Source of the DNA: Thermoanaerobaculia bacterium
GTDB taxonomy: Bacteria > Acidobacteriota > Thermoanaerobaculia > Multivoradales > UBA5704
Length of the DNA stretch: 64,000 nucleotides
Reading direction: 5' to 3'
Assembly (NCBI GenBank): GCA_049284515.1
Contig: JBAPYB010000416.1
Span: 3,582-67,581 of the forward strand
Position 1 is the first letter of the stretch. Every line of letters begins with the position of its first letter. Below the pieces are notes generated by a model that was given only the letters and a program-made list of their open reading frames with translations, was not told the DNA's origin and did no database searches. Position numbers and translations under genes: made by a program. Shown one piece after another: positions 12,642 through 52,422 of the stretch.

Positions 12642-12661
12642 AGGGGCACTCACAATGGTCG

Positions 12662-21667: not shown

Positions 21668-21683
21668 CGCTTACCTCCAGACT

Positions 21684-23099: not shown

Positions 23100-23113
23100 G
23101 TCAACTCCTTGCC

Positions 23114-35313: not shown

Positions 35314-35354
35314 CGCCGACCGCTCAACTCGTCTCGCCGAGCGCGCTACTCGCG

Positions 35355-35720: not shown

Positions 35721-35889
35721 GGTACTGTCCTAGTTTGATTTTCCCCCGGGAATTCGCCCCGTTTCCGCCCTGTTTGCGGTACCTTCCTCCGTAGGGGGAG
35801 GGGCCATCCTTCTCCCGCCCAAACCAGACGGCCCGGCGGTGTGCGCGAACACGTCCGCCGAGCCTGAGCCCAGCAGGAGGACTAACCCC

Positions 35890-37165: not shown

Positions 37166-37217
37166 ACCACCACTGCGAGCCAGTCCTTCGGGGCTGGCTC
37201 GTGCTACTTTAGGAGCC

Positions 37218-37454
37218 ATGCCCATGCGCCCGAAACGTTCCGCCGATCCCGTCAAGGCTGCTCACCAGCTATACCTAGAGATCATCGGGGAAGCCCCCGT
37301 CCAGCCCATGCCGGAGAACACTCCGGCCGCCGTCGCCGTGCGCCGTGGCGCGGCTGAGGGGGGCCAGAAGCGAGCGGCCAAGCTCACCCCCGAGCGACGG
37401 CGAGAGATCGCCCAGAAGGCCGCCGCGAAGCGCTGGAAAAAGCCCTCCCCGTAG
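37218..37454 (+). CDS. Small basic protein, possible DNA-binding protein
   Basis: 78 aa. The C-terminus GGQKRAAKLTPERRREIAQKAAAKRWKK is a pattern common in phage and plasmid small proteins. Confidence 0.5.
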   Translation: MPMRPKRSADPVKAAHQLYLEIIGEAPVQPMPENTPAAVAVRRGAAEGGQKRAAKLTPERRREIAQKAAAKRWKKPSP

Positions 37455-37622
37455 TCCCCCGCCCCTGGTAGAATCCCCTCCGGCGTGGCTAGGTTTGGCC
37501 ACCGAACGCCGGTTCCCCACAGCCGGCCCGCCGCGCCTTTCTTCCCTTCTCCCTTCTGTGGGCGGCGCCTGTGGGGGTGCTTCATCGCCAAGTGGCCCGG
37601 AGATCCGGCAGCGATTCAGTGC

Positions 37623-38159
37623 ATGGTCAACATGCTCGCGGGTGAGTCTCCGCCTAGCATACGGGACGCCGCCGCCCGGTGTTGTCGTGGAATGTCCGGA
37701 GATCCGAAGAAGCATATTGAACGACTTCGCAGACGATACCGCACGCTTGCCAAGCGCGGTAAGCTTCCCCTGCCAGAAACTCCCGCCTCCCGCTTGCAAG
37801 CCAAGGTCGCCGAACTCAGGGCGATGTACGAACATACCGATGCCAGGATCGAGGTCGCCCGGCGGGATCTCGTTTTGGCTGAAGACGAAGCCAAAGCACT
37901 TGGGCTCGACATCGAAGGTCCAAAACTCCAGCCTGTTCTCGCGGCGCTAGATCTAACAAAGGACCGCCTGGAATCCCTCACTATTTACCCTACCGAGATC
38001 GCCTATTCGCATTACAGGAACCAAGGACTAACTGTAGATCAGGCAGAAGAGCGGCTCATTCAAGAAACCGCGAAACTACAGTTAGTGAAAGAGCAAATCG
38101 AAATCACTCGGAAGGTCCGCGACCTCCGGGCCATCGCAGGGATTCCCTACCACGAGTAG
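37623..38159 (+). CDS. Coiled-coil protein, hypothetical
   Basis: 178 aa from MVNMLAGE. The start is uncertain (the ORF opens at 37485). Confidence 0.45.
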   Translation: MVNMLAGESPPSIRDAAARCCRGMSGDPKKHIERLRRRYRTLAKRGKLPLPETPASRLQAKVAELRAMYEHTDARIEVARRDLVLAEDEAKALGLDIEGPKLQPVLAALDLTKDRLESLTIYPTEIAYSHYRNQGLTVDQAEERLIQETAKLQLVKEQIEITRKVRDLRAIAGIPYHE

Positions 38160-38173
38160 TTCTTCCCCAGGCG

Positions 38174-38263
38174 TGGGGAAAACTATCCAAGAGCCTGGGG
38201 AAAACCTGTCTTTGGCTGGGGAAAATTGCCTGCTAAGCTGGGGAAAAGTTGCATCTTTTCCCC
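38174..38263 (+). promoter_or_regulatory. Iteron-like array: 4 direct TGGGGAAAA repeats plus 1 inverted copy
   Basis: Direct copies lie at 38174, 38196, 38217 and 38239 (spacing 22/21/22 bp). The inverted copy ttttcccc lies at 38256-38263. Confidence 0.7.
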
Positions 38264-38558
38264 GCTAAAATCAATGTTTGCAACGGTTTGAGTCTTACGG
38301 TAGGGTGGGGGAGTTGAGGGCCGACGGATTCAGGCCGCCGACCCTCAAGAGAAACCAGACGTAGCGGTCCGGAGTTCTCCGCAAGGGCAGTATACCTCCG
38401 GACCGCCGCGCCTCGAAAGGAGGACGCGGTGATTTACCCCAACTGCAAGCGCTGGAAGCTCATGTGGTCCCACCTTCCCCGGAAGGCGTAGCTACGCCCC
38501 GAGCGGGCCGGGGAGGGACTAGCGCCGCATTTTTCTTGAACTTACTTCGTTCTACCTA

Positions 38559-38587
38559 TTGACTTTCCCGACAAGGGCAAGCATAAT
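38559..38587 (+). promoter_or_regulatory. Sigma-70-like promoter of the transposase, possibly giving a leaderless mRNA
   Basis: TTGACT (38559-38564), a 17-nt spacer, then CATAAT (38582-38587). The transposase ATG at 38595 is 7 nt downstream of the -10 element. Confidence 0.45.
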
Positions 38588-38594
38588 GACGATT

Positions 38595-39437
38595 ATGGCA
38601 AACGTACTCAGCACCGCGAAGCGCTCCCAGATCGTCGCCGCCCTAATCGAGGGGATGGGCGTGAGGGCAACTGCCCGGATGGTCGATGTCTCGAAGGACA
38701 CCGTCTCGAAGCTCTCGCTTGAACTCGGGGAAGCCTGCATCCGGTACATGGACGAAACGCTGGTCAACCTGCCCTGCAAGCGGCTTCAGGTGGATGAGAT
38801 CTGGGGCTTCTGCTACGCGAAGCAGAAGAACGTCCCGGCCGCAAAACAGGGCACCTTCGGCTATGGCGATCTCTGGGCGTTCACGGGCGTTTGCGCCGAT
38901 ACGAAGATCATCCCCACCTTCCTGGTAGGCTCGCGGGACGCGGGGAGCGCCACGGCCTTCATGCAGGATCTCGCGGGCCGGCTGACGAACCGGATTCAGC
39001 TCACCACGGACGGGCACAAGATGTACCTGTCCGCGGTGGAGGACGCTTTCGGCGGCGGCGTTGACTACGCGATGCTGGTGAAGGTCTACGGGGACATCCC
39101 GCAGGGTGAGCACCGCTACAGCCAGCCGGACTGCATCGGCGCCCAGAAGCACGCCGTCTCGGGTTGCCCCGATGCCAAGCACGTGAGCACGAGTTTTATT
39201 GAAAGGCACAACCTGACCCTGAGGATGGGCATGAGACGCTATACCAGACTCACGAACGCCCATTCCAAGAAGCTCAGGAACCACACCGCCGCCCTGGGGC
39301 TGTTCCTCTGCTTCTACAACTTCTGCAAGATTCACACGACCTTGCGCGTCACGCCCTGCATGGCGGCCGGCGTTACGTCCCGCGTGTGGGAAATCGCGGA
39401 CCTAGTCAAGCTCCTGGACCGGCCGGCCGCGGCCTAA
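38595..39437 (+). CDS. IS1-family DDE transposase (single-ORF type)
   Basis: N-terminal HTH is RSQIVAALIEGMGVRATARMVDVSKDTV. Also present: QVDEIWGFCYAKQKN, LTTDGHKMY, and ERHNLTLRMGMRRYTRLTNAHSKKLRNH...YNFCKIHTTLRVTPCMAAG. Confidence 0.8.
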   Translation: MANVLSTAKRSQIVAALIEGMGVRATARMVDVSKDTVSKLSLELGEACIRYMDETLVNLPCKRLQVDEIWGFCYAKQKNVPAAKQGTFGYGDLWAFTGVCADTKIIPTFLVGSRDAGSATAFMQDLAGRLTNRIQLTTDGHKMYLSAVEDAFGGGVDYAMLVKVYGDIPQGEHRYSQPDCIGAQKHAVSGCPDAKHVSTSFIERHNLTLRMGMRRYTRLTNAHSKKLRNHTAALGLFLCFYNFCKIHTTLRVTPCMAAGVTSRVWEIADLVKLLDRPAAA

Positions 39438-39588
39438 CCAAGCCCAGCCGCGGCACGGTCTCAGGGGGTTGCCTTCAGGCCAGAACGGAGTATACATACA
39501 ATCAAACCGGAGTCCGGTCCCGTGCTACAATCCCCCTTACCCCCCGAGCGCAGTGCTCAGGGGTGTCTCCTTATGGGCGGAGGAAGCC

Positions 39589-39930
39589 ATGCTAAACTTA
39601 GAACTCGATGCTATCCTGTTCGAGAGAACGCCCGGGTGCTGGGTGGGGCAGTGCCTCCAATACGATATCGGGGCACAGGCAGAGTCGCTGCCGGATCTCG
39701 CCTACCAGCTCGGACGCGCCATAGCCGGCTACGCGGTTATCTGTGAAGAGACCGGGGTAGAGCCGTTCACAGCTCTGGGGTCCGCCCCCAGGGAGTACTG
39801 GGATCTCTGGCGCCGGGCGACACTCACCGTAGTATCACAACAAGAGCCGCGATTCCGGCTACCTAAGGCCGTGTCCGTGCCCGAAACACGCATGAAGGTG
39901 GCAGAGAGCGAGAAGAAGAAGGCGGCTTGA
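39589..39930 (+). CDS. Hypothetical protein, possibly HicB-like antitoxin fold
   Basis: 113 aa from MLNLELDAILFERTPGCWVGQC. The stop lies next to the start of the following ORF. Confidence 0.4.
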   Translation: MLNLELDAILFERTPGCWVGQCLQYDIGAQAESLPDLAYQLGRAIAGYAVICEETGVEPFTALGSAPREYWDLWRRATLTVVSQQEPRFRLPKAVSVPETRMKVAESEKKKAA

Positions 39931-39931
39931 G

Positions 39932-40210
39932 ATGACCTATCCTATGGCGCCGGCCTTGACTCTCCGGCAGTTCATAGACAAGACAGTCCCGCACGGAGTC
40001 GTTGAACGTTCCGTACCTGGGGGTATGGTCGGACCGCGAGGGGATATGAAGATTAGCTATCTCGAAATCGCCCGCCCCGGCGCGATTCGCGTGACTGAGC
40101 CTCTTCCAGAGAATGAGGAATCTCTGCTCGCCTGGGACACAGTAAGGCGTCTTTGCCGCCAGCTAGAGATTCAGCCCCGCGACTTGGACATCGGCCTTCC
40201 ACTCGATTGA
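39932..40210 (+). CDS. Hypothetical protein
   Basis: 92-aa ORF immediately after the previous gene (TGAGATG junction). Confidence 0.4.
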   Translation: MTYPMAPALTLRQFIDKTVPHGVVERSVPGGMVGPRGDMKISYLEIARPGAIRVTEPLPENEESLLAWDTVRRLCRQLEIQPRDLDIGLPLD

Positions 40211-40274
40211 GCCCCGACCCACATCCCCCGGGGCGGCCCCTACCGCCGCCCCGGATTCAAACTAGGACAGTACC

Positions 40275-40575
40275 CAAGGAGCATGCTCTTCGTCACGAAA
40301 AGCGTGCTCTTCATCACGAGAAGCGTGCTCTTTATCGCGAGGAGCATGCTCTTTATTGCGAGTAGCGTGCTCTTTGTCACGATGAGCATGCTCATCATCA
40401 CGAGAAGAGTGCTCATCATCACGAGAAGCGTGCTCATCGTCGCGAGGAGAGCTCTCCTCAAAACGACGAGCGTGCCTCTTGTTCGAAACAGCGCGCTCCT
40501 CGAGACGATGGGAGGGCTCCACGAGGCGTGGAGCGGGCGTACCGAGCCGAGAGGCACGCTCATCGAAGGAAACCT
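40275..40575. repeat. 21-bp tandem repeat array C (about 13-14 units), inverted relative to most of array B
   Basis: Example units are gagcatgctcttcgtcacgaa and aagcgtgctcttcatcacgag. The reverse complement of ~35420-35482 matches 40279-40341 with a few mismatches. Confidence 0.9.
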
Positions 40576-40599
40576 GGCATCCTGAGCCCGGCGGCAGAC

Positions 40600-40735
40600 T
40601 TGTGGGCCCGGCTGGGGCCAAGGGCGCCCTTGGCAGGGCGGATTGAATGGACCGAATGACGCCTACCCAGGGCTTCCGCCGGCTGTCGCCGGCTCCGCCC
40701 TGGGCTACAAATCTGCCGCCCTCCGGGCTCGCGGT
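40600..40735. repeat. REP/MITE-like intergenic element, family 2
   Basis: Shares ccaagggcgcccttggcagggcgga and tgggctac..tctgccgccctccgggctcg with 45845-46155. Confidence 0.55.
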
Positions 40736-40779: not shown

Positions 40780-41829
40780 GTGAAGCCTTTCTTTCGTAGC
40801 TCCCTCCGCGTCCTCGCCGTCACTGTCGTGACTCTCGCCGGCCTCCTGGGGCTGACCGCAGCCGCGATCACCCAGCCGACGTTCAGCATCACACGGCGGC
40901 CGGACGGCCCTCGCGCCGATCCTGAGCGTCTGCGGCGGCACGTGGAGCTGCTCACCCGGGAGGTATGGCCGCGGGACAGCGACCATCCGGAGAACCTCGA
41001 CCGTGCAGCGGTCTATCTGCGAGATCAATTTGCGGCCAGTCGCGTGCGGGTGACAACACCGGACTTCCATGTCCACGGCCGGACCTATCGCAACGTCGTC
41101 GCGTCCTTCGGCCCGGAGGCGGGGCCGATTCTGATCGTCGGCGCCCACTACGACTCTTTCGGCGGCTTCGGTGCCAACCCGGGAGCGGACGACAACGCCA
41201 GCGGCACGGCCGGCCTCCTCGAGCTGGCTCGTCTTCTGGCCGGTCACCGCCTGGAGCAGCGGGTGGATCTCGTGGCATTCGCCAACGAGGAGCCGCCATA
41301 CTTCGGCTCGGCCCAGATGGGAAGCGCCGTTCACGCTCGGTCGCTGGCGGGGCGGGAGGTCCGGGGAATGATCTGCCTGGAGATGATCGGCTACTTCACG
41401 CCACGCCAGCCCTCACCGAACTGGTTATTCCGGTTCCTCTACCCGAACCGGGGCGACTTCATCGCCGTCGCCGGCCGCTGGGCCGACCGCGAGCTCACCC
41501 GCCAAGTCAAACGCGCCATGCGCGGCGGCAGCGACCTCCCTGTCGTGAGCTTCACCGCTCCCCGGTCCGCAGGTCTGGACGGCTCCGACCAGATCAACTA
41601 TTGGGACCGCGGCATTCCTGCCGTGATGGTGACCGATACCGCCGACATCCGGAATCCTCACTATCACAGCCCTTTGGACACGGCGGAGACGCTGGACTAC
41701 CCCCGGATGGCTCGGGTGGTGGATGGCGTGACGAACGCGGTGCTGGCGATTTGTGGAAAGACCGCTCAGCATGCTGCCAGCATGCTACACTCTGAACATG
41801 GCGAATCTCCAGGTCAAGAACCTTCCTGA
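40780..41829 (+). CDS. M28-family aminopeptidase
   Basis: Signal/TM segment at the N-terminus. Contains GAHYDSFGG...GADDNASGTAGLLELARLL and NEEPPYFGS, which are M28 zinc-ligand contexts. Confidence 0.85.
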   Translation: MKPFFRSSLRVLAVTVVTLAGLLGLTAAAITQPTFSITRRPDGPRADPERLRRHVELLTREVWPRDSDHPENLDRAAVYLRDQFAASRVRVTTPDFHVHGRTYRNVVASFGPEAGPILIVGAHYDSFGGFGANPGADDNASGTAGLLELARLLAGHRLEQRVDLVAFANEEPPYFGSAQMGSAVHARSLAGREVRGMICLEMIGYFTPRQPSPNWLFRFLYPNRGDFIAVAGRWADRELTRQVKRAMRGGSDLPVVSFTAPRSAGLDGSDQINYWDRGIPAVMVTDTADIRNPHYHSPLDTAETLDYPRMARVVDGVTNAVLAICGKTAQHAASMLHSEHGESPGQEPS

Positions 41830-42031
41830 GCCCCTTCATACGCGCCTTCGGCGCTATGCGCGGCGGCATCACCGGACGCTCAGCGACGTTGCGCTAGCCG
41901 CTCTTGAGAGAGAGATGAACCGCTGCGAATGGTATGAGCGCTTGGCCCGGCGCCCGCCTACCGACCTCGGGGTCTCGGCGGCCTCGCTGCTTGAGGAAGA
42001 GCGGGGGCAGCGGCAGCGAGATCTCGATTGA
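41798..42031 (+). CDS. VapB/FitA-like antitoxin
   Basis: 77 aa starting MANLQVKNLPEPLHTRLRRYARRHHRTLSD, a typical FitA/VapB N-terminus. 4-nt overlap with the PIN gene. Confidence 0.7.
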   Translation: MANLQVKNLPEPLHTRLRRYARRHHRTLSDVALAALEREMNRCEWYERLARRPPTDLGVSAASLLEEERGQRQRDLD

Positions 42032-42429
42032 GCCGTTTTGTCATCGATGCCTCTGCGGCCGTGGAGTACCTTCTCCGCACTCCTCTCGGCCTCAGGCTCC
42101 AAGACCTCGTCGACGGCTCCTTCTTGATGGCGCCCGCTCTCTTGGATGTTGAAGTGCTCTCCGTATTGAGGCGTGCCGTTCTACACAGAGGACTCTCGGA
42201 AGCCAGGGCGGGATTGGCTCTCGAAGATCTCAGCGAATGGCCCATGGACCGTATACCGCACACAACCCTCATTAAAGAAGCCTGGCGGCATCGGCACAAC
42301 GTCAGTGCCTACGATGCATTCTATGTCGCCGTGGCCCGCCTCTACGAAGCGCCTCTCCTCACTACGGACGGTCCTCTTTCCCGCGCACCAGACCTCGGTA
42401 TCGACATACGCAATCTACGGATGGAGTAA
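42028..42429 (+). CDS. vapC: PIN-domain toxin VapC
   Basis: 133 aa. Has the FVIDASAAVEYLL N-terminus and AYDAFYVAVA...LLTTD motifs. Confidence 0.85.
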   Translation: MSRFVIDASAAVEYLLRTPLGLRLQDLVDGSFLMAPALLDVEVLSVLRRAVLHRGLSEARAGLALEDLSEWPMDRIPHTTLIKEAWRHRHNVSAYDAFYVAVARLYEAPLLTTDGPLSRAPDLGIDIRNLRME

Positions 42430-42607
42430 CAAGCAATCCGACGTTCGGCCCGAAACAGCATTGTCGCGGTCCGACTGCAATCGGGAGTCCATCCACGCCT
42501 GCCGCGCCCCTCCCCCTTTCCCTATCCTCCAGCTCGTGATTTCTATACAATGCGTAAGCTAGAGGGCGATCAAGTCTCACCCACCCGAGGCTTAGAGAGG
42601 TAGAGCT

Positions 42608-45346
42608 ATGGAAATAGGCGACCATCACCTTTTGCTGACTTTCCCTGAAGGGTGGTCGGCTGAGCAGAAGGGCGATTTTTTTGAGAGATTTGTCTCAGAG
42701 ATACTCAAGCCGATGCGATATTCGGTTGTCCAGCGCCTCAGGGTAACGGGAATGGAAATCGATCTTCTCGCAAGGAATGAGGATCAACCTACTACGATCT
42801 TGATAGAATGCAAGGCTCATAGAGATCCCATTTCCGCGGAAGTTATCTCCAAGCTCTTGGGAAATGTTACGCTCAGAAGGGCAGACAGCGGCTGGCTCTT
42901 TACTGCTAGCGACCTGACGAAGGATGCGAGAGGTCAGTGGGAGGAGATCCAAGCTGATCCTGAGCTGCGACGAAGGTTCACGTGGTTCTCACCACATCGG
43001 ACGCTTGATGTCTTAATTAGCCAGAAATCTGTTGTCGACCCACGAGATTTTGAGAGCGCGCTAAATGGCCGCGTAGTCGGCGATTGGACCCTAATCCTCT
43101 CCCCATCTGGCAAATCATGGCTTGCACAAATTGTGGAAGATGGACTTCCGGCTAGATTCAGTGTTTTTGATGCCAGCTCGGGTTTTCCGCTTTCAGCTAA
43201 AGCAGCCCAGGAAGTGGCTAATTCGTCGGCACGCTTTAGCTCCCTAAGCTTTCTCGACGTGGGGGCCGATGACCCTAAACGATACGCGACGCTACCGCCT
43301 CGTGCACCTGTCGCAAGAGTCATCTCTGGGGATGCTTGGGATGATCTACGGCCTTCACGACCACAAGACTTTGTGGGCCGCGACGATCTTATAGGCGATA
43401 TTTTCACATTCTTTGACGAAGTGCGTCAGAGCCGAACCTCGACTCGGATTTTTGCAGTGCAAGGCCCAAGCGGTTGGGGTAAGAGTTCTTTGCTTTTGAA
43501 ACTTGGCGATGTAGCACGGAAAAAGTCTAGATCATATTCACTGACAGCTATAGATACGCGATCAGCCACCAACTCAGCCTTCGTGAGTGAGGCTGTTAGT
43601 ATCGCTTTTGAAGAAGCGCGAGGGAAGGAACTACTGCCTGGAGCTACTAAACTTGAGGTTAACAGTCTTCGCGACCCACTCGATTCAAGTGGATTAGTGG
43701 CCGCGCTCAAAGTTCTCGCCGCTAATCGGACATGCATCGTTTTGGTATTTGACCAATTTGAGGAGCTTTTCGCAAAAGAAGAACTCTTCGAGACGTTTAA
43801 TGCTGTCCGAGATTTAAGCTTTGATATTGACGCGCGACAGGTTCCTATGATTTTGGGCTTCGCTTGGAAGACAGACGTATCGCTGCCACAACAACATCCC
43901 GCTTATCACTTGTGGCATCAGCTCACCGATAGAAGAAGGACCTTCAAGATTAGGGAATTCGGAAAGGGTGATGTAGGAAGATTGATAACCAAAGCTGAAA
44001 GGGCCTCAGGCAAGACGCTTAGCCGCGCCCTAAGGGCTCGCCTAATGGAACAATGCCAGGGATTGCCATGGCTATTGAAGAAACTTTTGGTACATGTCTT
44101 CCATCGAGTATCAGAGGTGCAATCGCAGTACGCACTACTGGAGAGAGAACTGGACGTAGAACTTCTCTTCAAGGAGGATCTGTCAGTGCTCAAGGAAGAG
44201 CAGATCAGATGTCTGAAGTTCGTCGCCAACCGCGCCCCAGTTCCGGTTGCAGAGGTGGAGGAAAACTTTTCGAGAGATACCACAAACCTCTTGATTAACG
44301 ACCATCTGCTTGTACGGAGCGGAATGAACTATGTTGTATATTGGGATATTTTCCGTGATTATTTGGTGGATGAAAAAGTGCCACAAATTCCGTGGGCAAA
44401 GACCTTTCAGCGCGATCCTCAAATGGCTGTAAGGGCCCTCCAAAAGCTGGCCGAGATCGGACCTTCGGCGTCATCTGCTTTGGCCGTTGCCCTTGGTCTC
44501 CGAGAGAAGCCGATTTTCAATATCGTAGGAGACCTTCTTGCATTACAGTTAATAGAACCCGATTCAGATGGGCTTTACACTCCAGCTTCTCATTTGCCTG
44601 ACCTTAGACCCGTAACAATCGCCCGCCACGTGCAAGGGCAACTTTCAAGGCATGTTGTGACGCGCGAATTGTTCTCAAGATGGGAGAGAGGACGGTTAAT
44701 CGATAGTCAGACATGGTATTCGTTCTTCAAAGATGCCCAGCCTCGGACTTCCACATTTTCGCAAAACACCGTTCATCAATATGCAAGCAACTTCCGCAGA
44801 TGGTTGTTGTTCGCCGGGCTTCTCGAACAGGATAGCCGTTGGCTAAGTCGACCTATGGGAAGTGGCTCACTAATGGGGAGTTTGGCTTCACAGAAAACGG
44901 CAGCAGGAGTCTTCTTGGGAACTGCTTCTCCTCCCTCTCTTGAGAGATTATTCATAGTTCTGAAGGAAAGCCGTGGAGTACTTGGAAGATCAGAGATTGC
45001 ACGGCAAGGGCTTCGAAATACTGCAACGGATGCTCTCGCCCTGGGGCTGGTATCAAATAGTCGCGATGGCCTGGTGCGGCTAATAGAGGAGGACTTATCC
45101 GTTGGTGAGTTGACAGCTAGAGCCAAGAGTGCGGTGCTTCGGCAACCGGCGATTCAGGCGGCTGCGCGAGCGAAGAATAGTGACCCTGCCGGCCAGGACA
45201 CGACCGCCATTGGGAGAGAGGTCGAAGAAGAGATGGGAGCGAGTTGGAAACCAAGTTCAGCAAAGCGCTATGGCAGTGGCCTACTGAGATATCTTGCTTG
45301 GGCATCGGCATCGGTTTCGCGCAAGGACGACGGGATGGTTGGCTAG
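42608..45346 (+). CDS. Mrr-like restriction endonuclease domain fused to a STAND-like P-loop NTPase
   Basis: 912 aa in low-GC DNA (sample line 43% G+C). N-terminus is FERFVSEIL...GMEIDLLA...ILIECKAH (D...ExK). Walker A is VQGPSGWGKSSLLLK and Walker B is IVLVFDQFEELF. The C-terminus is long and helical or wHTH-like. Confidence 0.7.
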   Translation: MEIGDHHLLLTFPEGWSAEQKGDFFERFVSEILKPMRYSVVQRLRVTGMEIDLLARNEDQPTTILIECKAHRDPISAEVISKLLGNVTLRRADSGWLFTASDLTKDARGQWEEIQADPELRRRFTWFSPHRTLDVLISQKSVVDPRDFESALNGRVVGDWTLILSPSGKSWLAQIVEDGLPARFSVFDASSGFPLSAKAAQEVANSSARFSSLSFLDVGADDPKRYATLPPRAPVARVISGDAWDDLRPSRPQDFVGRDDLIGDIFTFFDEVRQSRTSTRIFAVQGPSGWGKSSLLLKLGDVARKKSRSYSLTAIDTRSATNSAFVSEAVSIAFEEARGKELLPGATKLEVNSLRDPLDSSGLVAALKVLAANRTCIVLVFDQFEELFAKEELFETFNAVRDLSFDIDARQVPMILGFAWKTDVSLPQQHPAYHLWHQLTDRRRTFKIREFGKGDVGRLITKAERASGKTLSRALRARLMEQCQGLPWLLKKLLVHVFHRVSEVQSQYALLERELDVELLFKEDLSVLKEEQIRCLKFVANRAPVPVAEVEENFSRDTTNLLINDHLLVRSGMNYVVYWDIFRDYLVDEKVPQIPWAKTFQRDPQMAVRALQKLAEIGPSASSALAVALGLREKPIFNIVGDLLALQLIEPDSDGLYTPASHLPDLRPVTIARHVQGQLSRHVVTRELFSRWERGRLIDSQTWYSFFKDAQPRTSTFSQNTVHQYASNFRRWLLFAGLLEQDSRWLSRPMGSGSLMGSLASQKTAAGVFLGTASPPSLERLFIVLKESRGVLGRSEIARQGLRNTATDALALGLVSNSRDGLVRLIEEDLSVGELTARAKSAVLRQPAIQAAARAKNSDPAGQDTTAIGREVEEEMGASWKPSSAKRYGSGLLRYLAWASASVSRKDDGMVG

Positions 45347-45547
45347 TCATGACGAGTTGGGTGGTGTCGTCAGAGTATCCGGTCCAAATTGGTAGCCCTT
45401 CAAAAATCCCTGCAACACCTCCGCATTGGAAGAGGTCGCGTGCCCCTCGCCGCCGACAATCCGGTCGAGGAACCGCCGGCAGGGCAGCCTCTGGAGGCTC
45501 TCCTTGCCAGCGGCGTACATAAAGATATTCGTGTCGATCAGGATCAC
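45347..45547 (-). pseudogene. Truncated PIN-domain (vapC) gene
   Basis: Only ~50 PIN-like residues remain (ILIDTNIFMYAAGKE...). The homology ends where the low-GC insert begins. Confidence 0.65.
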
Positions 45548-45788
45548 GAGTAGCGCCTGGCGACGGACTCTTCAATCATTTCTTCGACAGGCCCCACAGG
45601 AGCGTTGAGCGACTTGAGTAGGGCCAAGGCTTCGCGGGGGCTCAGGTTGCTCCTCCGAGAGTCTCGTCGGCCTTCTCACGTAGTTGACGCCTTGCCCACT
45701 CTGCAAGCGGCAGGCGCGATCGGCGCGCAGCGGCCTGAAAGCTCGAATATTCCTGCTCACTGACGGGGATCTGAATGCGTTTGGTCAT
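45544..45788 (-). pseudogene. Frameshifted RHH-type antitoxin
   Basis: My translation gives MTKRIQIPVSEQEYSSFQAAARRSRLPLAEWARRQLREKADETLGGAT-stop. The expected C-terminus SPREALALLKSLNAPVGPVEEMIEESVARRYS continues in another frame. The 245-nt span is not a multiple of 3. Confidence 0.55.
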
Positions 45789-45844
45789 ACTCTTAGTTAG
45801 GCATGAGTATGACCGCCGGCCTACGGAGCGTCAAGGCAACTGAG

Positions 45845-46155
45845 AGGGTTACTGGCAGCGCTTGCAATCCGCACTTGGCAGGGCGGAGATAGGGTTGGTC
45901 GATCGGGGTTCCCAGGACTCGCGTTTTGGGCTACCAGCCCGGAGGGCGGCAGACTTGTAGCCCAGTGCGCAAGCGCTGGGAAACCGCGCAATATGAATCC
46001 CGAATCCCGCCCTGCCAAGGGCGCCCTTGGCAGGGCGGAGGATGGCGTTGGTCGACCCGGTCCCAGGACTCGCGTCCTGGGCTACGAGTCTGCCGCCCTC
46101 CGGGCTCGTCTCCGGGTCCACCGGGAGAGGTTTACAGGCAGCGCTTGCAATCCGA
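45845..46155. repeat. Cluster of REP/MITE-like elements, family 2
   Basis: ggcagcgcttgcaatccg occurs at both ends. Two copies of cttggcagggcgga...tcccaggactcgcgt..tgggctac are present, with the ctgccgccctccggg core in opposite orientations. Confidence 0.55.
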
Positions 46156-46381
46156 GGGCGTCGTGGTGGGGCAGAGGCTGTCGTCGGACCAGCCTTTGCC
46201 CGCAGCGTGCCGCAGATCCGGCGCGCTCAGTTGCAGAACGGTCTCTCTCGAAAGGTTGAGCTTTTTCAGGGTTTCGGTCTTCTTCATGAGCCGTCTCCTC
46301 TTGTCAGCCGCCCACACCCAGGCTCGGCGGTTTGGTATCAAGAGGTATACGGAGCACGGGATCGACTTGTTGCGGCCCGCT

Positions 46382-47482
46382 TCAGACCCGCCCACGCCGT
46401 CCCGCCATGTCCACTGCCACGGCGGCGACGAGGATGCCGCCTTTGAGGATGGGCTGCCAGAAGGCTTCGGTGTTGAGGAGGCTCATGCCGTTGTCGAGCG
46501 AGGCCATGACCAGGGCGCCCAGGAGGGCTCCCCAGACGGTTCCCTGACCGCCGAGCAGGGAGGTGCCGCCGATCACGGCGGCGGCGATGGCGTCGAGCTC
46601 CATGAGCTGGCCGGCGTTGGGGGTCGCGGCTCCCACCCTGGCGGTGAGGACCACGCCGGCCGCTCCCGCCAGCAGGCCCATGAGGGTGAAGACCCCGACG
46701 AGATGGCGCTCGATGGCGATGCCGGAGTAGAAGGCCGCCTCACGGTTGCCGCCGATCGCATAGAGGTGACGACCGAACGGAGTGTGGTGGGCGACGGTGG
46801 AAAGGACGGTCGCGAGGGCCAGGACCACCAGGACCGGCACCGGGACGCCCGCGTAGGCGTTCATCAACGCTACGGCGCCGATCGCCAGGGCGGCGAGGCC
46901 CAGGCGCCCGAGACGCCGGCGGCCCCATCGGCGGTCATCGATGCGCCAGGCGGTGAGCGCCAGGGCCACGGCGACGACTCCGGCCACGAGCCAGCCCGCG
47001 AGCGGCGGCAGGTAGGCCTGGCCCAGGAAGAGGAACGGCCGCGGCGGCGAGGTCGAGACGCCGCCGGTAACGCCGAGGAGCGTGCCCTGGAAGACGAGCA
47101 TGCCGCCCAGGGTGACGATGAAGGGGGGAATCCGCAGCCAGGCCACGAGGCTCCCTTCGAGGGCGCCCAGCACCGCGCCCACGGCGAGCGCCAGCAGGAT
47201 GGCGGGGCACAGCGGCCAGCTGAGCCGCGTGTAGGCGAGGGCCGCGAGGGCGCCGGTCAGGCCGGCCAGGGCGCCGACCGAGAGGTCGATCTGGCCGGCG
47301 ACGATCACCAGCACCATGCCGACTGCCAGGATGGAGGTCACCGCCATCTGGCGGGCCAGCAGGGAGAGGTTGCGCGGCAGCAGGAAGGTGCCGCCGGTGG
47401 CCACCGAGAAGACCAGCCAGATGGCGAGCAGCGCTCCCACCATGGTGAGCGCGCGCCAGTCGACGGGCAGGCGTTTCAGCAT
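46382..47482 (-). CDS. xylH: Xylose ABC transporter permease
   Basis: 366 aa with many TM helices. Sugar-type permease in an operon with xylF and xylG. Confidence 0.8.
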   Translation of the reverse strand: MLKRLPVDWRALTMVGALLAIWLVFSVATGGTFLLPRNLSLLARQMAVTSILAVGMVLVIVAGQIDLSVGALAGLTGALAALAYTRLSWPLCPAILLALAVGAVLGALEGSLVAWLRIPPFIVTLGGMLVFQGTLLGVTGGVSTSPPRPFLFLGQAYLPPLAGWLVAGVVAVALALTAWRIDDRRWGRRRLGRLGLAALAIGAVALMNAYAGVPVPVLVVLALATVLSTVAHHTPFGRHLYAIGGNREAAFYSGIAIERHLVGVFTLMGLLAGAAGVVLTARVGAATPNAGQLMELDAIAAAVIGGTSLLGGQGTVWGALLGALVMASLDNGMSLLNTEAFWQPILKGGILVAAVAVDMAGRRGRV

Positions 47483-47483
47483 C

Positions 47484-49031
<1,548 letters not shown>

Positions 49032-49102
49032 GGCGGCAGTCTACTGCGTCAGCGGAGCTCCGGGCGGCGGTCCCGGCAGGCCGCCGCCCGGTTGAGAACA
49101 AT

Positions 49103-50026
49103 TCAGTGGCCTGGAGTGCCGGAGGTGCAGGTGACGCAGACCCAGATGCAGTGCAGATGGTCGCATCCGTCGCTGGACTGATTGGGATCGGTGCTGTTCA
49201 GATCGCAGTGGCAGGTCTGGCGGGGGCACTGCCCCGCCGGACAACTGGGCGTCGGCGAGGGGGAGGGGCTCGTCGACGCGAGGGTGGGACGCGTCGGCTC
49301 CCCCTTGAGCACTGCCGGGGAGACGCCGGCGACGAAGTTCGAGGAGGCCGGCAGCACGGTGTCCGGCCGGCCGTCGCCGTCGGTGTCGATCTTGACGCCG
49401 GCCGGATACTGCGGCGCCTTGACGTAGGCCCAGACGGAGCGGCTGCCGGGCCCAAGATCGATACGGCGGGTGACTTCGCGCCGGCCGCTGCGGTCGCCGT
49501 CGACGGGCGTGAACACGGCCTTGACGCGCAAGGCCAGCGGCGCCGAGTAGGTCCCGCCGAGCGCCTCGGTCCGGAAGATGCGCATCGTCGTGACCGGCTG
49601 CTCGCCAGACAGGCTGACGGCGACGACGTACTGGCCGCAACTCGTCTCGATCGGCTTGACGCTCACCAGCGACAACGCCAGCAACTGGATGCGGGTCGTG
49701 GCCTCGCCCTGGGCATTGAAGGTCGCGTCGTCGAGCCGGCGCACGGCGGTGTCGATGCCGCCGAGGCTGCCGGCGGGCGATGCCGCGAGCGGCGCGCCCT
49801 TGAACACGATCTTGCCGGTGAAGGGCTGCGAGCCGGTGCAGAAGAAGTCCGCCGGGATCGGCTCGCTGGCGAAGCTCGTCTGCGCGAAACCTGCGACGGT
49901 GATCCACAGGTCGACGCCCGAGTGGATGGAATTTCCCGCTCCCGCGAAGGCGAGCGGGCCGCCGATGAGGGCAAGGAGCAAGGCTCCCGGAATGGCTGAA
50001 CGGATCCAAGGCCTCGTGATCTTCAT
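49103..50026 (-). CDS. Secreted protein of unknown function with a Cys/His-rich C-terminal tail
   Basis: Probable start is MKITRPW, with signal peptide ALLLALIGGPLAFAGAG. The tail reads CPAGQCPRQTCHCD...CDHLHCIWVCVTCTSG. Confidence 0.5.
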   Translation of the reverse strand: MKITRPWIRSAIPGALLLALIGGPLAFAGAGNSIHSGVDLWITVAGFAQTSFASEPIPADFFCTGSQPFTGKIVFKGAPLAASPAGSLGGIDTAVRRLDDATFNAQGEATTRIQLLALSLVSVKPIETSCGQYVVAVSLSGEQPVTTMRIFRTEALGGTYSAPLALRVKAVFTPVDGDRSGRREVTRRIDLGPGSRSVWAYVKAPQYPAGVKIDTDGDGRPDTVLPASSNFVAGVSPAVLKGEPTRPTLASTSPSPSPTPSCPAGQCPRQTCHCDLNSTDPNQSSDGCDHLHCIWVCVTCTSGTPGH

Positions 50027-50156
50027 TTCTCCGCTCCTTTCGGTCATTGTGGACTGTGGTGGGCTCTGGCCCGGGGCGGCCTGCGAGCCCCTTCTACAAG
50101 AACAGTGCACCGGAGCCCGGTCCGTGATACTCACCGGCGGGCCGCTGTTCCCAGGA

Positions 50157-51158
50157 CTATTTGCCGTATACCTGCTCGCGGCTATGGAAACCGTCGGCGA
50201 TCACGGTGGAGCCCAGGTTCGCCTTGTCCACGGCGATCGGATCCAACAGCACGCTCGGCACGTCCTTGAAGCCGTTGTTGAGCCGCCGGGTCGGCTTTTC
50301 GTACGGCTGCTTCTTCGCCATGGCCACCGCGATCTCCGCCGCCTTCGTGGCGAGGCCCTTGATGGGCTTGTAGACCGTCATGCTCTGGGTGCCGGCGACG
50401 ATCCGCTGGCAGGCGGTGAGCTCCGCGTCCTGGCCGGTGACCACGACCTTGCCCGCGAGCTGCTGCTCGGCCAACGCCTGGATCGCTCCGCCCGCCAGGC
50501 CGTCGTTGGCCGCCACCACCGCGTCGATGCGGTTGTTCTGCCGCGTCAGGGCGTTCTCCATGATCTTCAGCGCCTCGACGGGCTGCCAGTCGGCGGCGTA
50601 CTGGTCGGTGATGATGTCGATCTCGTGCCGGTCGACGTAGGGCTTCAGGACCTTCATCTGCCCCTGGTGGTAGAGGACGGCGTTGTTGTCGGCCGGCGAG
50701 CCGCCGATCACCACGTAATGCCCCTTGGGCGCTCGCTGCACCGCGTAGCCGGCCTGCAGCTCGCCCACCCGCTCGTTGTCGAACGAGAGATAGAGGTCGA
50801 CGTCCGCGTCGTTGATCAGCCGGTCGTAGGCGATGACCGGCACGCCCGCCCGGTGTGCCGCTTCGACGATCGTCGCCGCGGTCTTGCTGTTGTGCGGCGC
50901 CACCACCAGCACGTCCACGCCCTGGGTGAGGAGGTTCTCGGCCTGGGAGTTCTGCACCGCCTCGTCGTTGTTGGCCGCCTGCACGAGGACGCGGGCGTCC
51001 AGCTCGCCGCAGCGCTTGACGAACAGGTCGCGGTCGCGCTGCCAGCGCTCCTCGCGAAGGGTGTCGAGCGAGAGGCCGATGGTGAGCTGCCGGCCGCCGC
51101 GGCGGCAGCCGGCCGCGAAAGCCACGGCGAGCAGCAGGATCAGGACCTTCCATCGCAT
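50157..51158 (-). CDS. xylF: D-xylose ABC transporter substrate-binding protein
   Basis: Long collinear similarity to E. coli XylF as I recall it (RWQ.DRD.FVK, GVDVLV, YDR.INDAD.D.Y.SFDNE.VGELQA, GQMKVLKPYVD, KIMENALT..NN.IDAVVA.ND..AGGAIQAL, GTQ.MTVYKPI). Lipoprotein signal is AFAAGC. Confidence 0.85.
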   Translation of the reverse strand: MRWKVLILLLAVAFAAGCRRGGRQLTIGLSLDTLREERWQRDRDLFVKRCGELDARVLVQAANNDEAVQNSQAENLLTQGVDVLVVAPHNSKTAATIVEAAHRAGVPVIAYDRLINDADVDLYLSFDNERVGELQAGYAVQRAPKGHYVVIGGSPADNNAVLYHQGQMKVLKPYVDRHEIDIITDQYAADWQPVEALKIMENALTRQNNRIDAVVAANDGLAGGAIQALAEQQLAGKVVVTGQDAELTACQRIVAGTQSMTVYKPIKGLATKAAEIAVAMAKKQPYEKPTRRLNNGFKDVPSVLLDPIAVDKANLGSTVIADGFHSREQVYGK

Positions 51159-51248
51159 GGTGCGGGCCTCCCGAAGAGGGTTCCAGACGGTGGCGAGAGC
51201 CTACGGCCCGAGAGGAGGGGGCGTCAACGACTACACGGCTGCCGAGGC

Positions 51249-52367: not shown

Positions 52368-52422
52368 CGTCGCGTCCTCGCCCCCAGACCCGAAGGGATG
52401 CAAGAACCAGGACCACGATAAC

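What the first reader, a model, noticed from the sequence alone, without database searches (positions are those of the whole stretch)
42430..45346. Low-GC single-gene insert: Mrr-like nuclease fused to a STAND-like NTPase, wedged between TA loci
The 912-aa ORF sits in DNA of clearly lower G+C (a sample line counts 43%). Its domains are:
- an N-terminal Mrr-cat-type PD-(D/E)xK pattern (GMEIDLLA...ILIECKAH);
- a P-loop NTPase with Walker A GPSGWGKSS and Walker B VLVFDQFEELF;
- a ~550-aa helical C-terminal region.
A nuclease effector plus a STAND NTPase plus a large sensor-like domain is the architecture of Avs-type antiviral STAND proteins. The insert begins right after the stop of an intact vapC (42429) and ends exactly where a PIN gene on the other strand is truncated (45347). 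It therefore appears to have landed in a TA locus.
Basis: partly seen in the sequence, partly recalled or inferred. Interest (0 to 1): 0.66.

Follow-up and report, generated by a model that had tools for sequence, protein, structure and literature searches.

The report
Acquired nuclease–STAND immune-receptor-like gene
A foreign-looking single gene encoding a DNA-cutting domain fused to an NLR-type molecular switch and an unusual winged-helix "sensor" has displaced half of a toxin gene; it is most likely an untested kind of bacterial antiviral receptor, and a relative sits in a known E. coli defence hotspot.

Summary
ORF 42608..45346 (+, 912 aa) is the lowest-GC stretch of the window (0.507, against a window mean of 0.633). 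It encodes Mrr_cat (Pfam E 9e-13) followed by an nSTAND1 STAND NTPase (E 3e-11). The D-ExK, Walker A and Walker B residues are invariant across 108 homologues, down to 23% identity.

The C-terminus is not a 550-aa helical or TPR sensor. It consists of the STAND HD1 and WHD subdomains, followed by a basic array of about 320 aa of tandem winged helices. That array has no significant PDB match.

No PADLOC Avs or PD-lambda-4 model matches the protein.

The gene is always solitary. It is 12-16 GC points below its flanks in unrelated high-GC hosts, and it occurs on conjugative elements. An E. coli homologue (WP_000113630.1, 29% identity, colinear) lies in the psu-int defence hotspot of P4-like satellites.

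In the window, the gene abuts a PIN toxin gene cut after codon 53, and that toxin's antitoxin is frameshifted. The whole stretch 41.8-51.2 kb is absent between the same flanking genes in the nearest relatives.

Verdict: this is a real, horizontally acquired, Avs-like nuclease-STAND gene from an uncharacterised family. Its function is inferred, not shown.

The parts
42430..42607 (+). 178-nt leader between the vapC stop and the ATG. It presumably holds the gene's own promoter and RBS (GAGAGG 8-13 nt upstream of the ATG). The left junction of the acquired DNA lies somewhere in this interval.
   Evidence: Sequence read. GC is 0.584, intermediate between the gene and its flanks. The sigma-70 consensus scan found no + strand promoter here, so the promoter is inferred only.
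42608..45346 (+). 912-aa ORF encoding the nuclease-STAND-winged-helix protein (identical to MFY9824266.1, annotated 'restriction endonuclease', Thermoanaerobaculia MAG).
   Evidence: GC 0.507 and GC3 0.485.
42608..42976 (+). Residues 1-123: Mrr_cat-type PD-(D/E)xK nuclease (the effector). Catalytic candidates are E50, D52 (42761-42763), E67 (42806-42808) and K69 (42812-42814).
   Evidence: Pfam PF04471, E 9.3e-13. These residues are invariant in alignment A1 (54 sequences). In A3 (55 sequences at 23-56% identity) they are invariant except E67, which is Q in 3. Translation checked.
42977..43354 (+). Residues 124-249: a linker domain with a three-stranded beta meander plus helices, then a conserved pre-NTPase segment (V238, G241, W244, D246, R248, P249). 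Its role is unknown, and it is the least conserved N-terminal part.
   Evidence: AF2 secondary structure. Mean pairwise identity 0.39 (A1) and 0.20 (A3). No Pfam hit.
43355..43882 (+). Residues 250-425: the nucleotide-binding domain of the STAND NTPase, with Walker A GPSGWGKSS (43463-43489) and Walker B VLVFDQFEE (43739-43765).
   Evidence: Pfam nSTAND1, E 3e-11, and AAA_16. Invariant G289, G291, K292, S293, S294 and D382, Q383, F384, E385. Translation checked.
43883..44377 (+). Residues 426-590: helical domain HD1, carrying QCQGLPWLLKKL (a GxP-type motif, 44051-44098), and the STAND winged-helix domain, ending in YVVYWDIFRDYL (at the position of the NB-ARC MHD motif, 44330-44368).
   Evidence: AF2 model. 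Invariant P487, W488, K491, Y578, D580, F582; W579 in 54/55. Translation checked. The correspondence to the NB-ARC GLPL and MHD motifs is my inference from established knowledge of NB-ARC domains.
44378..45307 (+). Residues 591-900: the putative sensor. It consists of winged-helix-like units at about 604-659, 700-748 and 775-825, plus a four-helix tail at 832-900. It is basic and more variable than the rest of the protein.
   Evidence: AF2 pLDDT about 88 in both the full-length and the isolated model. Foldseek against PDB gave no significant hit; the best weak matches are tandem winged-helix proteins RPC62, UFL1, SelB-C and IdeR. Median pI 9.8 and net charge +9. Mean pairwise identity 0.29-0.42, against 0.56-0.65 for the nuclease and NTPase. 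No Pfam hit.
41753..42429 (+). Intact vapB (41753-42031, FitA-like RHH) and vapC (42028-42429, PIN) module immediately upstream. It is a neighbour, not a partner of the gene.
   Evidence: None of the homologue loci examined has a conserved neighbour.
45347..45547 (-). Truncated PIN toxin gene of 66 codons. Only codons 1-53 (45389-45547) are PIN-like. The right junction of the acquired DNA lies within 45347-45389.
   Evidence: 70% identity to P0268/L111 PIN (PF01850) over residues 1-53. DNA homology to L111 ends near 45411. No C-terminal remnant is present.
45547..45791 (-). Cognate antitoxin gene, now frameshifted near 45645-45648. Residues 2-49 and 50-82 of the 82-aa L111 antitoxin align in two different frames, so this second TA module is decayed.
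41830..51248 (.). The larger variable stretch containing the finding. In the two nearest relatives the M28 peptidase gene is followed directly by the homologue of the beta-lactamase-family gene at 51249-52403 (-).
   Evidence: tblastn synteny map for L008 and L020. M28 is 82% and 80% identical, ending at locus position 10981 and 10978 respectively. The next gene is 90% and 85% identical to window 51252-52478 and starts at 10984.

Best explanation
The gene encodes a stand-alone, horizontally mobile, NLR-like immune receptor of the nSTAND1 clade, built like an antiviral STAND (Avs) protein.

Proposed mechanism:
1. In the resting state the protein is a nucleotide-bound, auto-inhibited monomer.
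2. An infection-associated ligand is bound by the C-terminal basic array of winged-helix domains.
3. Ligand binding allows the NBD-HD1-WHD switch to bind or exchange NTP and oligomerise.
4. Oligomerisation brings the N-terminal Mrr-type PD-(D/E)xK domains together into active nuclease assemblies.
5. These cut DNA without much sequence selectivity, which stops phage replication at the cost of the infected cell (abortive infection).

In this genome the gene arrived by horizontal transfer into a variable region rich in toxin-antitoxin modules. The event deleted the 3' half of a PIN toxin gene, and that toxin's antitoxin has since decayed.

Shown: domain composition, residue conservation, predicted fold, solitary and mobile genomic behaviour, the truncated neighbour, and the defence-hotspot location of an E. 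coli relative.

Inferred: every functional step, namely the ligand, oligomerisation, DNA cleavage and abortive infection.
For: Architecture: Mrr_cat followed by nSTAND1, both above Pfam gathering scores.

Conservation:
- The nuclease D-ExK residues and Walker A/B are invariant in 54 close homologues. They are essentially invariant in 55 distant ones at 23-56% identity.
- STAND hallmark motifs are present: GLPWLL in HD1 and YWDIFRD after the WHD wing.
- There is a receptor-like conservation gradient. Effector and switch average 0.56-0.65 pairwise identity, while the C-terminal part averages 0.29-0.42.

Structure: the AF2 model is confident (pLDDT 87.9). Foldseek hits to its NTPase module include the ZAR1 NLR resistosome, PAB2304 and ORC/Cdc6.

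Link to conflict systems: homologue P0020 carries an N-terminal EAD7 adaptor (E 4.9e-19) together with a degenerate nuclease. This is the effector-swapping typical of the conflict systems in which nSTAND1 was defined (PMC8195603).

Genomic behaviour:
- The gene is solitary, with no conserved neighbour, at all 11 loci examined.
- In all seven high-GC hosts and metagenome loci examined, gene GC is 0.44-0.54 against flanks of 0.51-0.69.
- It occurs on an ICE-like element (L090), on the conjugative megaplasmid pBVIE01 and in 16 IMG/VR viral contigs.

Defence-hotspot location: E. coli WP_000113630.1 is 29% identical (E 4e-115), colinear over residues 5-899, and has the same Pfam domains. It lies between psu and int of a P4-like satellite at ssrA in 54 of 5426 complete genomes. 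That position is the anti-phage hotspot described in PMC9122126, which also notes untested Mrr_cat-STAND proteins there.
Against: - No experiment on any member of this family was found.
- No PADLOC model of a known Avs, AVAST or PD-lambda-4 protein matches the protein or six relatives. Only weak nuclease-domain hits to the candidate PDC-S02 were seen.
- No known defence gene is detectable next to the gene in this window, and most homologue neighbourhoods are not classical defence islands.
- The sensor is short and built of winged helices rather than the TPR-like repeats of most characterised Avs sensors. Protein-fold recognition as in Avs1-4 therefore cannot be assumed.
- The GenBank phage collection contains no homologue.
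Confidence: 0.62

Rival explanations
1. The protein is an NTP-dependent restriction-type enzyme that senses nucleic acid directly. The basic tandem winged-helix array would bind foreign DNA (modified, unmodified or structured) or RNA, as the winged-helix domains of Mrr, ORC/Cdc6 or SelB bind nucleic acid. The P-loop module would then load or oligomerise on that nucleic acid and license the Mrr nuclease to cut it. This would give direct immunity rather than abortive infection triggered by a phage protein.
For: - The C-terminal 310 aa are basic: median pI 9.8 and net charge +9, with the central segment 666-770 at pI 10.3-11.5.
- The only, weak, structural neighbours of the sensor are tandem winged-helix nucleic-acid or polymerase-associated proteins, and a MarR-like winged helix. 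Some homologues hit Pfam MarR_2 in this region.
- The NTPase module resembles ORC/Cdc6 and RuvB about as well as it resembles NLRs in Foldseek.
- Databases name the family 'restriction endonuclease'.
Against: - The Pfam assignment is to a STAND clade. The GxP and MHD-like motifs fit a STAND switch rather than a translocating or clamp-loading AAA+ protein.
- NCBIfam orc1/cdc6 scores 17.5 bits against a cut-off of 181.
- No cognate methyltransferase or other self-protection gene accompanies the gene at any locus.
- Winged-helix domains also mediate protein-protein contacts.
- The charge argument is only suggestive.
Confidence: 0.22
2. The protein is not a defence function but a cellular NTPase-nuclease involved in DNA repair, replication control or transcription regulation. 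The Mrr-like domain would be a DNA-binding or processing module and the winged helices would bind promoters.
For: Some STAND NTPases are regulators (AfsR was the best, non-significant, PDB sequence match at E 0.04). Winged-helix arrays are common in regulators. [quoted passage not shown]
Against: - The distribution is sporadic and cross-phylum at 50-63% identity.
- The gene has foreign GC in every high-GC host examined.
- It is carried by satellites, ICEs and plasmids.
- It is present in only 1% of complete E. coli genomes.
- It is absent from the nearest relatives at this locus.
- The nuclease catalytic residues are intact and invariant.
- No NCBIfam housekeeping family matches.
Confidence: 0.05
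3. The gene works together with the neighbouring toxin-antitoxin modules as one system. Either the vapBC module or the truncated PIN module would regulate it, or it would be their effector.
For: The gene is physically wedged between two TA modules. TA-like genes (TacA-like, Fic/DOC, PIN_8) are seen near some homologues.
Against: - No neighbour is conserved among the homologue loci examined.
- The downstream module is destroyed: the toxin is truncated and the antitoxin frameshifted.
- The vapBC GC (0.607) differs from that of the gene (0.507), which indicates separate origins.
- A 178-nt leader separates the gene from vapC.
Confidence: 0.03

Closest known systems
Avs proteins with Mrr-type nuclease effectors, such as Avs8A/PD-lambda-4 (Mrr nuclease plus P-loop NTPase, major-capsid sensor; PMC12236752, PMC13581612). 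From my own knowledge of Gao et al. 2022, Avs4 and Avs2 representatives also belong here.
   Same: A single polypeptide ordered as N-terminal PD-(D/E)xK (Mrr-like) nuclease, central STAND NTPase and C-terminal sensor. It is accessory and horizontally mobile and is found in satellite and prophage hotspots. The expected logic is ligand-induced oligomerisation that activates a DNase.
   Different: - No sequence-profile similarity to any PADLOC Avs/AVAST or PD-lambda-4 model at E<=1.
- The NTPase belongs to the nSTAND1 clade.
- The sensor is a basic tandem winged-helix array of about 320 aa rather than TPR-like repeats.
- There is no partner gene, whereas Avs8 has Avs8B.
- No trigger or phenotype is known.
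- No solved Avs structure appears among the top 50 Foldseek matches.
nSTAND1-clade conflict systems (Kaur, Burroughs, Iyer, Aravind 2021, eLife; Pfam PF20703)
   Same: The Pfam nSTAND1 hit is above the gathering score. One family member (P0020) carries an EAD7 adaptor, like the systems in which the clade was defined. UniRef already names relatives 'nSTAND1 domain-containing NTPase'.
   Different: The paper describes nSTAND1 mainly in multi-component systems built around EAD or Death-like adaptors. Here the effector is fused directly and the gene is solitary. Only profile positions 14-226 of 379 are matched.
TIR-NLR and other STAND proteins of the P4 psu-int hotspot (Rousset et al. 2022, PMC9122126)
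   Same: The E. coli relative occupies the same hotspot. That paper explicitly mentions hotspot STAND proteins whose TIR domain is replaced by Mrr_cat.
   Different: Those proteins are described as having C-terminal repeats (TPR). The Mrr_cat versions were not tested, and I could not verify that they are this family (supplementary tables are not held).
Mrr type IV restriction endonuclease
   Same: It shares the catalytic-domain family (PF04471) and combines that domain with winged-helix modules.
   Different: From my own knowledge of Mrr: Mrr has an N-terminal winged-helix DNA-binding domain, no NTPase, and a C-terminal catalytic domain. Here the order is reversed and a STAND switch is inserted.
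ORC/Cdc6-type AAA+ initiators
   Same: An NTPase followed by winged-helix domain(s). They are among the Foldseek matches (E about 1e-5) and give the best, though weak, NCBIfam hit.
   Different: The NCBIfam score is far below the family cut-off (17.5 against 181 bits). ORC/Cdc6 proteins have no nuclease and are housekeeping and vertically inherited, which this gene is not.

Membership tests
STAND NTPases, nSTAND1 clade (Pfam PF20703) | Profile match above Pfam's gathering score | tested here: met
   44.0 bits against a cut-off of 27.1, E 3e-11, residues 253-490. The same holds for the E. coli relative at 32 bits. Only profile positions 14-226 of 379 are covered.
STAND NTPases (general) | NBD-HD1-WHD tripartite core with Walker A, Walker B, a GxP motif in HD1 and a conserved motif after the WHD wing | tested here: met
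   AF2 secondary structure and domain order. GPSGWGKSS, VLVFDQFEE, QGLPWLL and YWDIFRDY are all invariant or nearly so. Foldseek matches include ZAR1 (6j5t), E 1.3e-6. The equivalence to the NB-ARC motifs is my inference.
Mrr_cat PD-(D/E)xK nucleases (Pfam PF04471) | Profile match above the gathering score, with catalytic D...(D/E)xK residues present | tested here: met
   48.8 bits against a cut-off of 21. D52, E67 and K69 are present. D52 and K69 are invariant in 109 sequences, and E67 is present in 106 of 109.
Avs / AVAST types I-V and PD-lambda-4 (Avs8), as modelled in PADLOC-DB v2.0.0 | Match to the family HMMs | tested here: not met
   No Avs/AVAST or PD-lambda-4 model appears at E<=1. 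Only the nuclease domain hits the candidate PDC-S02 at 1e-5. Six other family members give the same result.
Avs (antiviral STAND) in the broad, functional sense | N-terminal effector, STAND NTPase and C-terminal sensor in one protein | tested here: met
Avs (antiviral STAND) in the broad, functional sense | Large TPR-like or other repeat sensor (at least 400 aa in the census of PMC13581612) | tested here: not met
   The region after the WHD is about 320 aa. It consists of winged-helix-like units plus a helical tail, with no TPR hit in Pfam and no repeat-protein match in Foldseek. If it is measured from the end of the NBD instead, the C-terminal region is about 490 aa.
Avs (antiviral STAND) in the broad, functional sense | Demonstrated anti-phage activity and activation by a phage-encoded trigger | not testable with these tools
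   No experimental report was found for this family.
Avs7-24 / defence-associated STAND clades of Lee et al. 2026 (PMC13581612) | Assignment to one of the 589 clades or 684 sensor structural clusters in the supplementary tables | not tested
   The supplementary tables are not held. By the paper's stated criterion (at least 50% of members with an annotated effector domain), a clade made up of this family would count as defence-associated.
Genes of the P4-satellite psu-int defence hotspot | Located between psu and int of a P4-like element | tested here: met
   This is met for the E. coli relative WP_000113630.1, not for the window gene. The gene order there is primase ... ogr/Delta, Psu, small ORF, the gene, integrase, ssrA.
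ORC/Cdc6 initiators (NCBIfam TIGR02928) | Score above the family cut-off | tested here: not met
   17.5 bits against a cut-off of 181.3.
VapBC toxin-antitoxin modules (flanking genes) | RHH antitoxin followed by an overlapping PIN toxin | tested here: met
   Upstream module: FitA-like RHH (E 1.6e-7) and PIN (E 1.1e-11) with a 4-nt overlap. Downstream module: the PIN gene is truncated at codon 53 and the antitoxin is frameshifted.

The most novel reading that the evidence does not exclude
The family is a bacterial NLR-like receptor whose sensor is a tandem winged-helix array that recognises nucleic acid rather than a phage protein fold. The ligand could be a phage DNA or RNA feature, a replication intermediate or a modification. 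This would be a nucleic-acid-sensing STAND nuclease, mechanistically between Avs proteins and NTP-dependent restriction enzymes, and spread across at least five phyla by horizontal transfer.
Probability: 0.22. Interest if true: 0.72.

Novelty: new variant of a known kind. Interest (0 to 1): 0.45.

Why it matters
Antiviral STAND proteins are the bacterial counterparts of animal and plant NLRs. Each characterised family has revealed a different way of recognising infection.

This family is large: 767 clusters at 50% identity. It is found in Acidobacteriota, Gamma- and Betaproteobacteria, Myxococcota, Deinococcota and Cyanobacteria, and it is carried by satellites, ICEs and plasmids. Existing defence-annotation models that I could run do not detect it, and databases mislabel it 'restriction endonuclease'.

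Its compact, basic winged-helix sensor differs from the TPR sensors studied so far, so the family may recognise a different class of ligand.

Because an E. coli member sits in the P4 hotspot, the family can be tested directly with standard coliphage panels.

The window also preserves a snapshot of island turnover: an incoming defence-type gene overwrote a toxin gene, and the orphaned antitoxin then decayed.

Tried and rejected
1. Housekeeping assignment. NCBIfam gave only sub-threshold hits (orc1/cdc6 at 17.5 against 181 bits; RuvB, guanylate kinase). Rejected.
2. Membership in a named defence family. PADLOC gave no Avs, PD-lambda-4, bNACHT or other full-length match for the query or six relatives.
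3. A solved structural relative. Sequence search of the PDB found nothing below E 0.04. Foldseek of the whole model matched only the generic NTPase module. Foldseek of the C-terminal model had no hit at E<=0.001. BFVD gave only generic ATPases and one phage NLR-like protein.
4. Empty-site comparison. The nearest genomes found through the M28 peptidase lack vapBC, the gene, the decayed TA module and the ABC operon altogether. They show a larger variable region but not the precise pre-insertion TA locus.
5. Exact-sequence look-ups. The vapC protein is not on record, and the gene itself occurs elsewhere only on a 3.9-kb contig. The left junction therefore stays unresolved.
6. Flanking repeats or a recombinase as the insertion mechanism. 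There are no direct or inverted repeats at 42430/45347 and no integrase. The 140-nt dispersed repeats at 40.6 and 45.9 kb do not bracket the gene specifically. There is no tRNA in the window.
7. Promoter and terminator scans found nothing above shuffle expectation.
8. Neighbouring ORFs in 35.3-40.2 kb have no Pfam or PADLOC hits, so a 'defence island' context is not established in the window.
9. Literature. No paper mentions WP_000113630. The recently named P4-hotspot systems (Crouga, Bandua, Aernus, Toga, Reve, Hailong) do not fit this architecture. The supplementary tables of the 2026 STAND census are not held.
10. GenBank phage genomes contain no homologue.

Full report
OBSERVATION

The 912-aa ORF is at 42608..45346 on the + strand. 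The finding's start, 42430, is the first base after the vapC stop, so 42430-42607 is a 178-nt leader.

The ORF has GC 0.507 and GC3 0.485. The window mean is 0.633, and neighbouring backbone genes have GC3 of 0.78-0.91. The lowest-GC 2.7-kb stretch of the whole window starts at 42401.

The three quoted motifs translate as stated: GMEIDLL...ILIECKAH, GPSGWGKSS and VLVFDQFEE.

The ORF is not a chance reading frame. It is identical to MFY9824266.1 from a Thermoanaerobaculia MAG and has hundreds of colinear homologues of about 900 aa.

ANATOMY

Pfam assigns residues 21-113 to Mrr_cat (E 9.3e-13) and residues 253-490 to nSTAND1 (E 3e-11). Both are above the gathering scores.

An AlphaFold2 model built on 54 sequences is confident (pLDDT 87.9, pTM 0.74). 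It divides the protein as follows:
- Residues 1-123: nuclease.
- Residues 124-249: a small beta-rich linker domain.
- Residues 250-425: nucleotide-binding domain.
- Residues 426-528: helical domain carrying QCQGLPWLLKKL.
- Residues 529-590: a winged-helix domain ending in YVVYWDIFRDYL.
- Residues 591-900: three further winged-helix-like units and a four-helix tail.

From what is established about NB-ARC/STAND domains, I read GLPWLL as the GxP (GLPL) motif and YWD..RD as the counterpart of the MHD motif. That reading is an inference.

The first part is the HD1 and WHD subdomains of the STAND switch. The second is a sensor-like region of about 320 aa that is alpha/beta, not a helical repeat.

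CONSERVATION

In 54 full-length homologues at 33-62% identity, the following are invariant:
- E50, D52, E67, C68 and K69 (nuclease).
- The Walker A residues.
- D382-E386 (Walker B).
- The HD1 and WHD motifs.

In 55 representatives at 23-56% identity, E50, D52, C68, K69, Walker A, D382-E385, Y578, D580 and F582 remain invariant. E67 is E in 52 and Q in 3.

Mean pairwise identity is 0.56-0.65 for the nuclease, NBD, HD1 and WHD. It is 0.29-0.42 for the C-terminal units. A conserved effector and switch with a faster-evolving sensor is the gradient expected of an immune receptor.

The exhaustive representative search found 767 clusters (50% identity) at E<=1e-3 and 326 at E<=1e-30, most of them colinear over the full length.

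THE SENSOR

The isolated C-terminal model (residues 590-912, pLDDT 88) has no PDB match at E<=0.001. Its weak best matches are proteins made of several winged helices: Pol III RPC62, UFL1, the SelB C-terminus, IdeR/DtxR and a MarR-like protein. The profile search of PDB sequences also touched that MarR-like protein at residues 608-658.

The region is basic, with median pI 9.8 and net charge +9. The N-terminal half of the protein is acidic to neutral.

This leaves open whether the ligand is a protein or a nucleic acid.

WHAT IT IS NOT

- NCBIfam offers no housekeeping family.
- PADLOC v2 has no Avs/AVAST, PD-lambda-4 or other full-length match for this protein or for six relatives, including the E. 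coli and Acinetobacter ones. Only the nuclease domain weakly resembles the candidate PDC-S02.
- Whole-model Foldseek finds only the NTPase module (PAB2304, ZAR1 resistosome, RuvB, ORC/Cdc6). No solved Avs structure appears among the top 50.

LOCAL CONTEXT

Upstream lies an intact vapB-vapC pair.

Downstream, on the other strand, the 66-codon ORF 45347-45547 had no Pfam hit of its own. Its first 53 residues are 70% identical to a PIN protein (P0268/L111, PF01850). Protein homology ends at 45389 and DNA homology ends near 45411. No remnant of the missing C-terminal part is detectable anywhere in 42-46 kb.

The cognate antitoxin, 82 aa in L111, aligns in two frames that switch near 45645-45648, so it is frameshifted. 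The second TA module is therefore dead, as expected once its toxin was cut.

The right junction of the acquired DNA lies in 45347-45389, directly after the stop codon. The left junction lies somewhere in 42430-42607. No terminal repeats, recombinase gene or tRNA accompany the insert.

WIDER CONTEXT

In the nearest genomes (M28 peptidase 82% and 80% identical), the M28 gene is followed after 2-5 nt by the homologue of window gene 51249-52403, a beta-lactamase-family protein.

The 9.4 kb between those two genes in the window has no counterpart at that position in the relatives. It contains vapBC, this gene, the decayed TA module, a cluster of 140-nt repeats and a sugar ABC-transporter operon.

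In L020 the 5.3 kb upstream of M28 (35.3-40.7 kb), which contains an IS1-like transposase ORF, is also missing.

The gene therefore sits in a mosaic variable region whose pieces differ in GC: 0.51 for the gene, about 0.60 for the TA modules and 0.72 for the ABC genes.

BEHAVIOUR ELSEWHERE

The gene is solitary, with a leader of roughly 230-770 nt and no conserved neighbour, at these loci:
- Two Lysobacter genomes.
- Burkholderia.
- Corallococcus.
- A Smithellaceae MAG.
- Two metagenomic lineages.
- The B. vietnamiensis megaplasmid.

Neighbours include Fic, RhuM, TacA-like, PIN_8, a transposase fragment, a caspase-like protease, an ICE-like block (TraT, SSB, ParB, ArdC, RES) and conjugative plasmid genes.

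In high-GC hosts the gene is 12-16 GC points below its flanks, for example 0.49-0.51 against 0.65 in Lysobacter and 0.53 against 0.69 in Corallococcus. This points to repeated recent transfer from a pool of about 45-50% GC.

One homologue (P0020) has gained an EAD7 adaptor and lost the ExK residues (GVDLL...VGYRSH). This ties the family to the adaptor-based conflict systems in which nSTAND1 was defined (PMC8195603).

Sixteen IMG/VR viral contigs encode full-length relatives. In five of them the gene lies between Psu and an integrase, next to a P4-type primase and repressor.

The same gene is found at >=99% identity in 54 of 5426 complete E. coli genomes. There it is annotated WP_000113630.1 'restriction endonuclease' and lies between psu and int of a P4-like satellite at ssrA. 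It is 29% identical to the window protein over residues 5-899 (E 4e-115) and has the same Pfam domains and motifs.

That position is the anti-phage hotspot described by Rousset et al. (PMC9122126). They remark that hotspot STAND proteins can carry Mrr_cat instead of TIR but did not test them.

MECHANISM

The best-supported reading is an Avs-like receptor. A ligand is bound by the winged-helix array, the STAND module oligomerises in an NTP-dependent way, and the N-terminal Mrr nucleases are activated by proximity. The outcome is DNA destruction and abortive infection.

This rests on the mechanism established for nuclease-bearing Avs proteins (PMC13581612, PMC12236752, and my own knowledge of Gao et al. 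2022), transferred by architecture. None of it has been shown for this family.

The main rival is direct nucleic-acid sensing, that is, a restriction-like enzyme. The basic winged-helix array and the ORC/Cdc6-like hits argue for it. The STAND-specific motifs and the absence of any self-protection partner argue against it.

A housekeeping or regulatory role, and functional coupling to the TA neighbours, are unlikely for the reasons listed under the rival explanations.

NOVELTY

The design of nuclease, STAND switch and sensor is known. The nSTAND1 clade is described. The 2026 census of STAND NTPases used Mrr-bearing seeds and shows nSTAND clades, so this family has probably been catalogued there. 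I could not check, because the supplementary tables are not held.

I found no experimental work on the family and no named system matching it. It also fails every test I could run for membership in a named Avs family.

I therefore rate it a new variant of a known kind, of moderate interest. Its value lies in the unusual sensor, the breadth of its spread, and the tractable E. coli representative.

Noticed in passing
window 11304-23746 (- strand): Eight co-directional, tightly packed or overlapping ORFs (470, 638, 470, 501, 272, 1070, 471 and 210 aa) form a second low-GC block (0.52-0.58 over about 10-24 kb). None has a Pfam hit at E<=1e-5 or a PADLOC hit better than 1e-3. The two ORFs tested have no PDB sequence match. 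This is a large, probably acquired operon of entirely unknown function.
   Followed up: partly
window 45547-45791 (- strand): The antitoxin of the truncated PIN module is itself frameshifted near 45645-45648. Residues 2-49 and 50-82 of its 82-aa homologue align in different frames. This is either decay of an orphaned antitoxin or an assembly error.
   Followed up: yes
window 40590-40730 and 45842-46154: A GC-rich dispersed repeat of about 140 nt, containing the palindrome GCCAAGGGCGCCCTTGGC. It occurs once upstream of the M28 gene and as an inverted pair after the decayed TA module. It is found nowhere else in the 64 kb and not in the related loci. It resembles a REP/MITE-like element and may mark recombination sites.
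   Followed up: partly
window 40277-40538: A 21-nt tandem repeat (consensus AGCGTGCTCTTCATCACGAGA, 8 copies at 82% match, plus degenerate copies) lies in the intergenic stretch upstream of M28. It creates spurious repetitive ORFs on both strands.
   Followed up: no
window 35311-40659: A 5.3-kb stretch is absent from relative L020 between the thioesterase and M28 genes. It holds an IS1-family-like transposase ORF (38559-39437, weak DDE_Tnp_IS1 and HTH hits) and several ORFs with no Pfam or PADLOC hit. This is a second variable region flanking M28.
   Followed up: partly
P0020 (homologue, 1015 aa): A family member has an added N-terminal EAD7 adaptor domain (E 4.9e-19) and a nuclease domain that has lost the ExK residues (VLVGYRSH). 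This looks like a switch from a fused effector to a recruited one.
   Followed up: partly
P0086 (homologue, 1592 aa): This is called as one ORF that fuses a phage tape-measure-like N-terminus (PhageMin_Tail, E 3.6e-8) to a complete family member. Most likely it is a prophage-borne copy directly downstream of the tape-measure gene, or a gene-calling read-through.
   Followed up: no
L110 8750-8959 (E. coli P4-like satellite): A 69-aa hypothetical ORF with no Pfam hit sits between psu and the STAND gene in the E. coli hotspot. Whether it is a partner, a regulator or a remnant is unknown, and the window has no counterpart.
   Followed up: no
Plasmid hits H12-H15 (Enterobacter and Salmonella plasmids): Proteins on enterobacterial plasmids match only residues ~444-742 of the query (HD1, WHD and the first winged helices) at 25-27% identity. 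This suggests that the module also occurs in other architectures.
   Followed up: no
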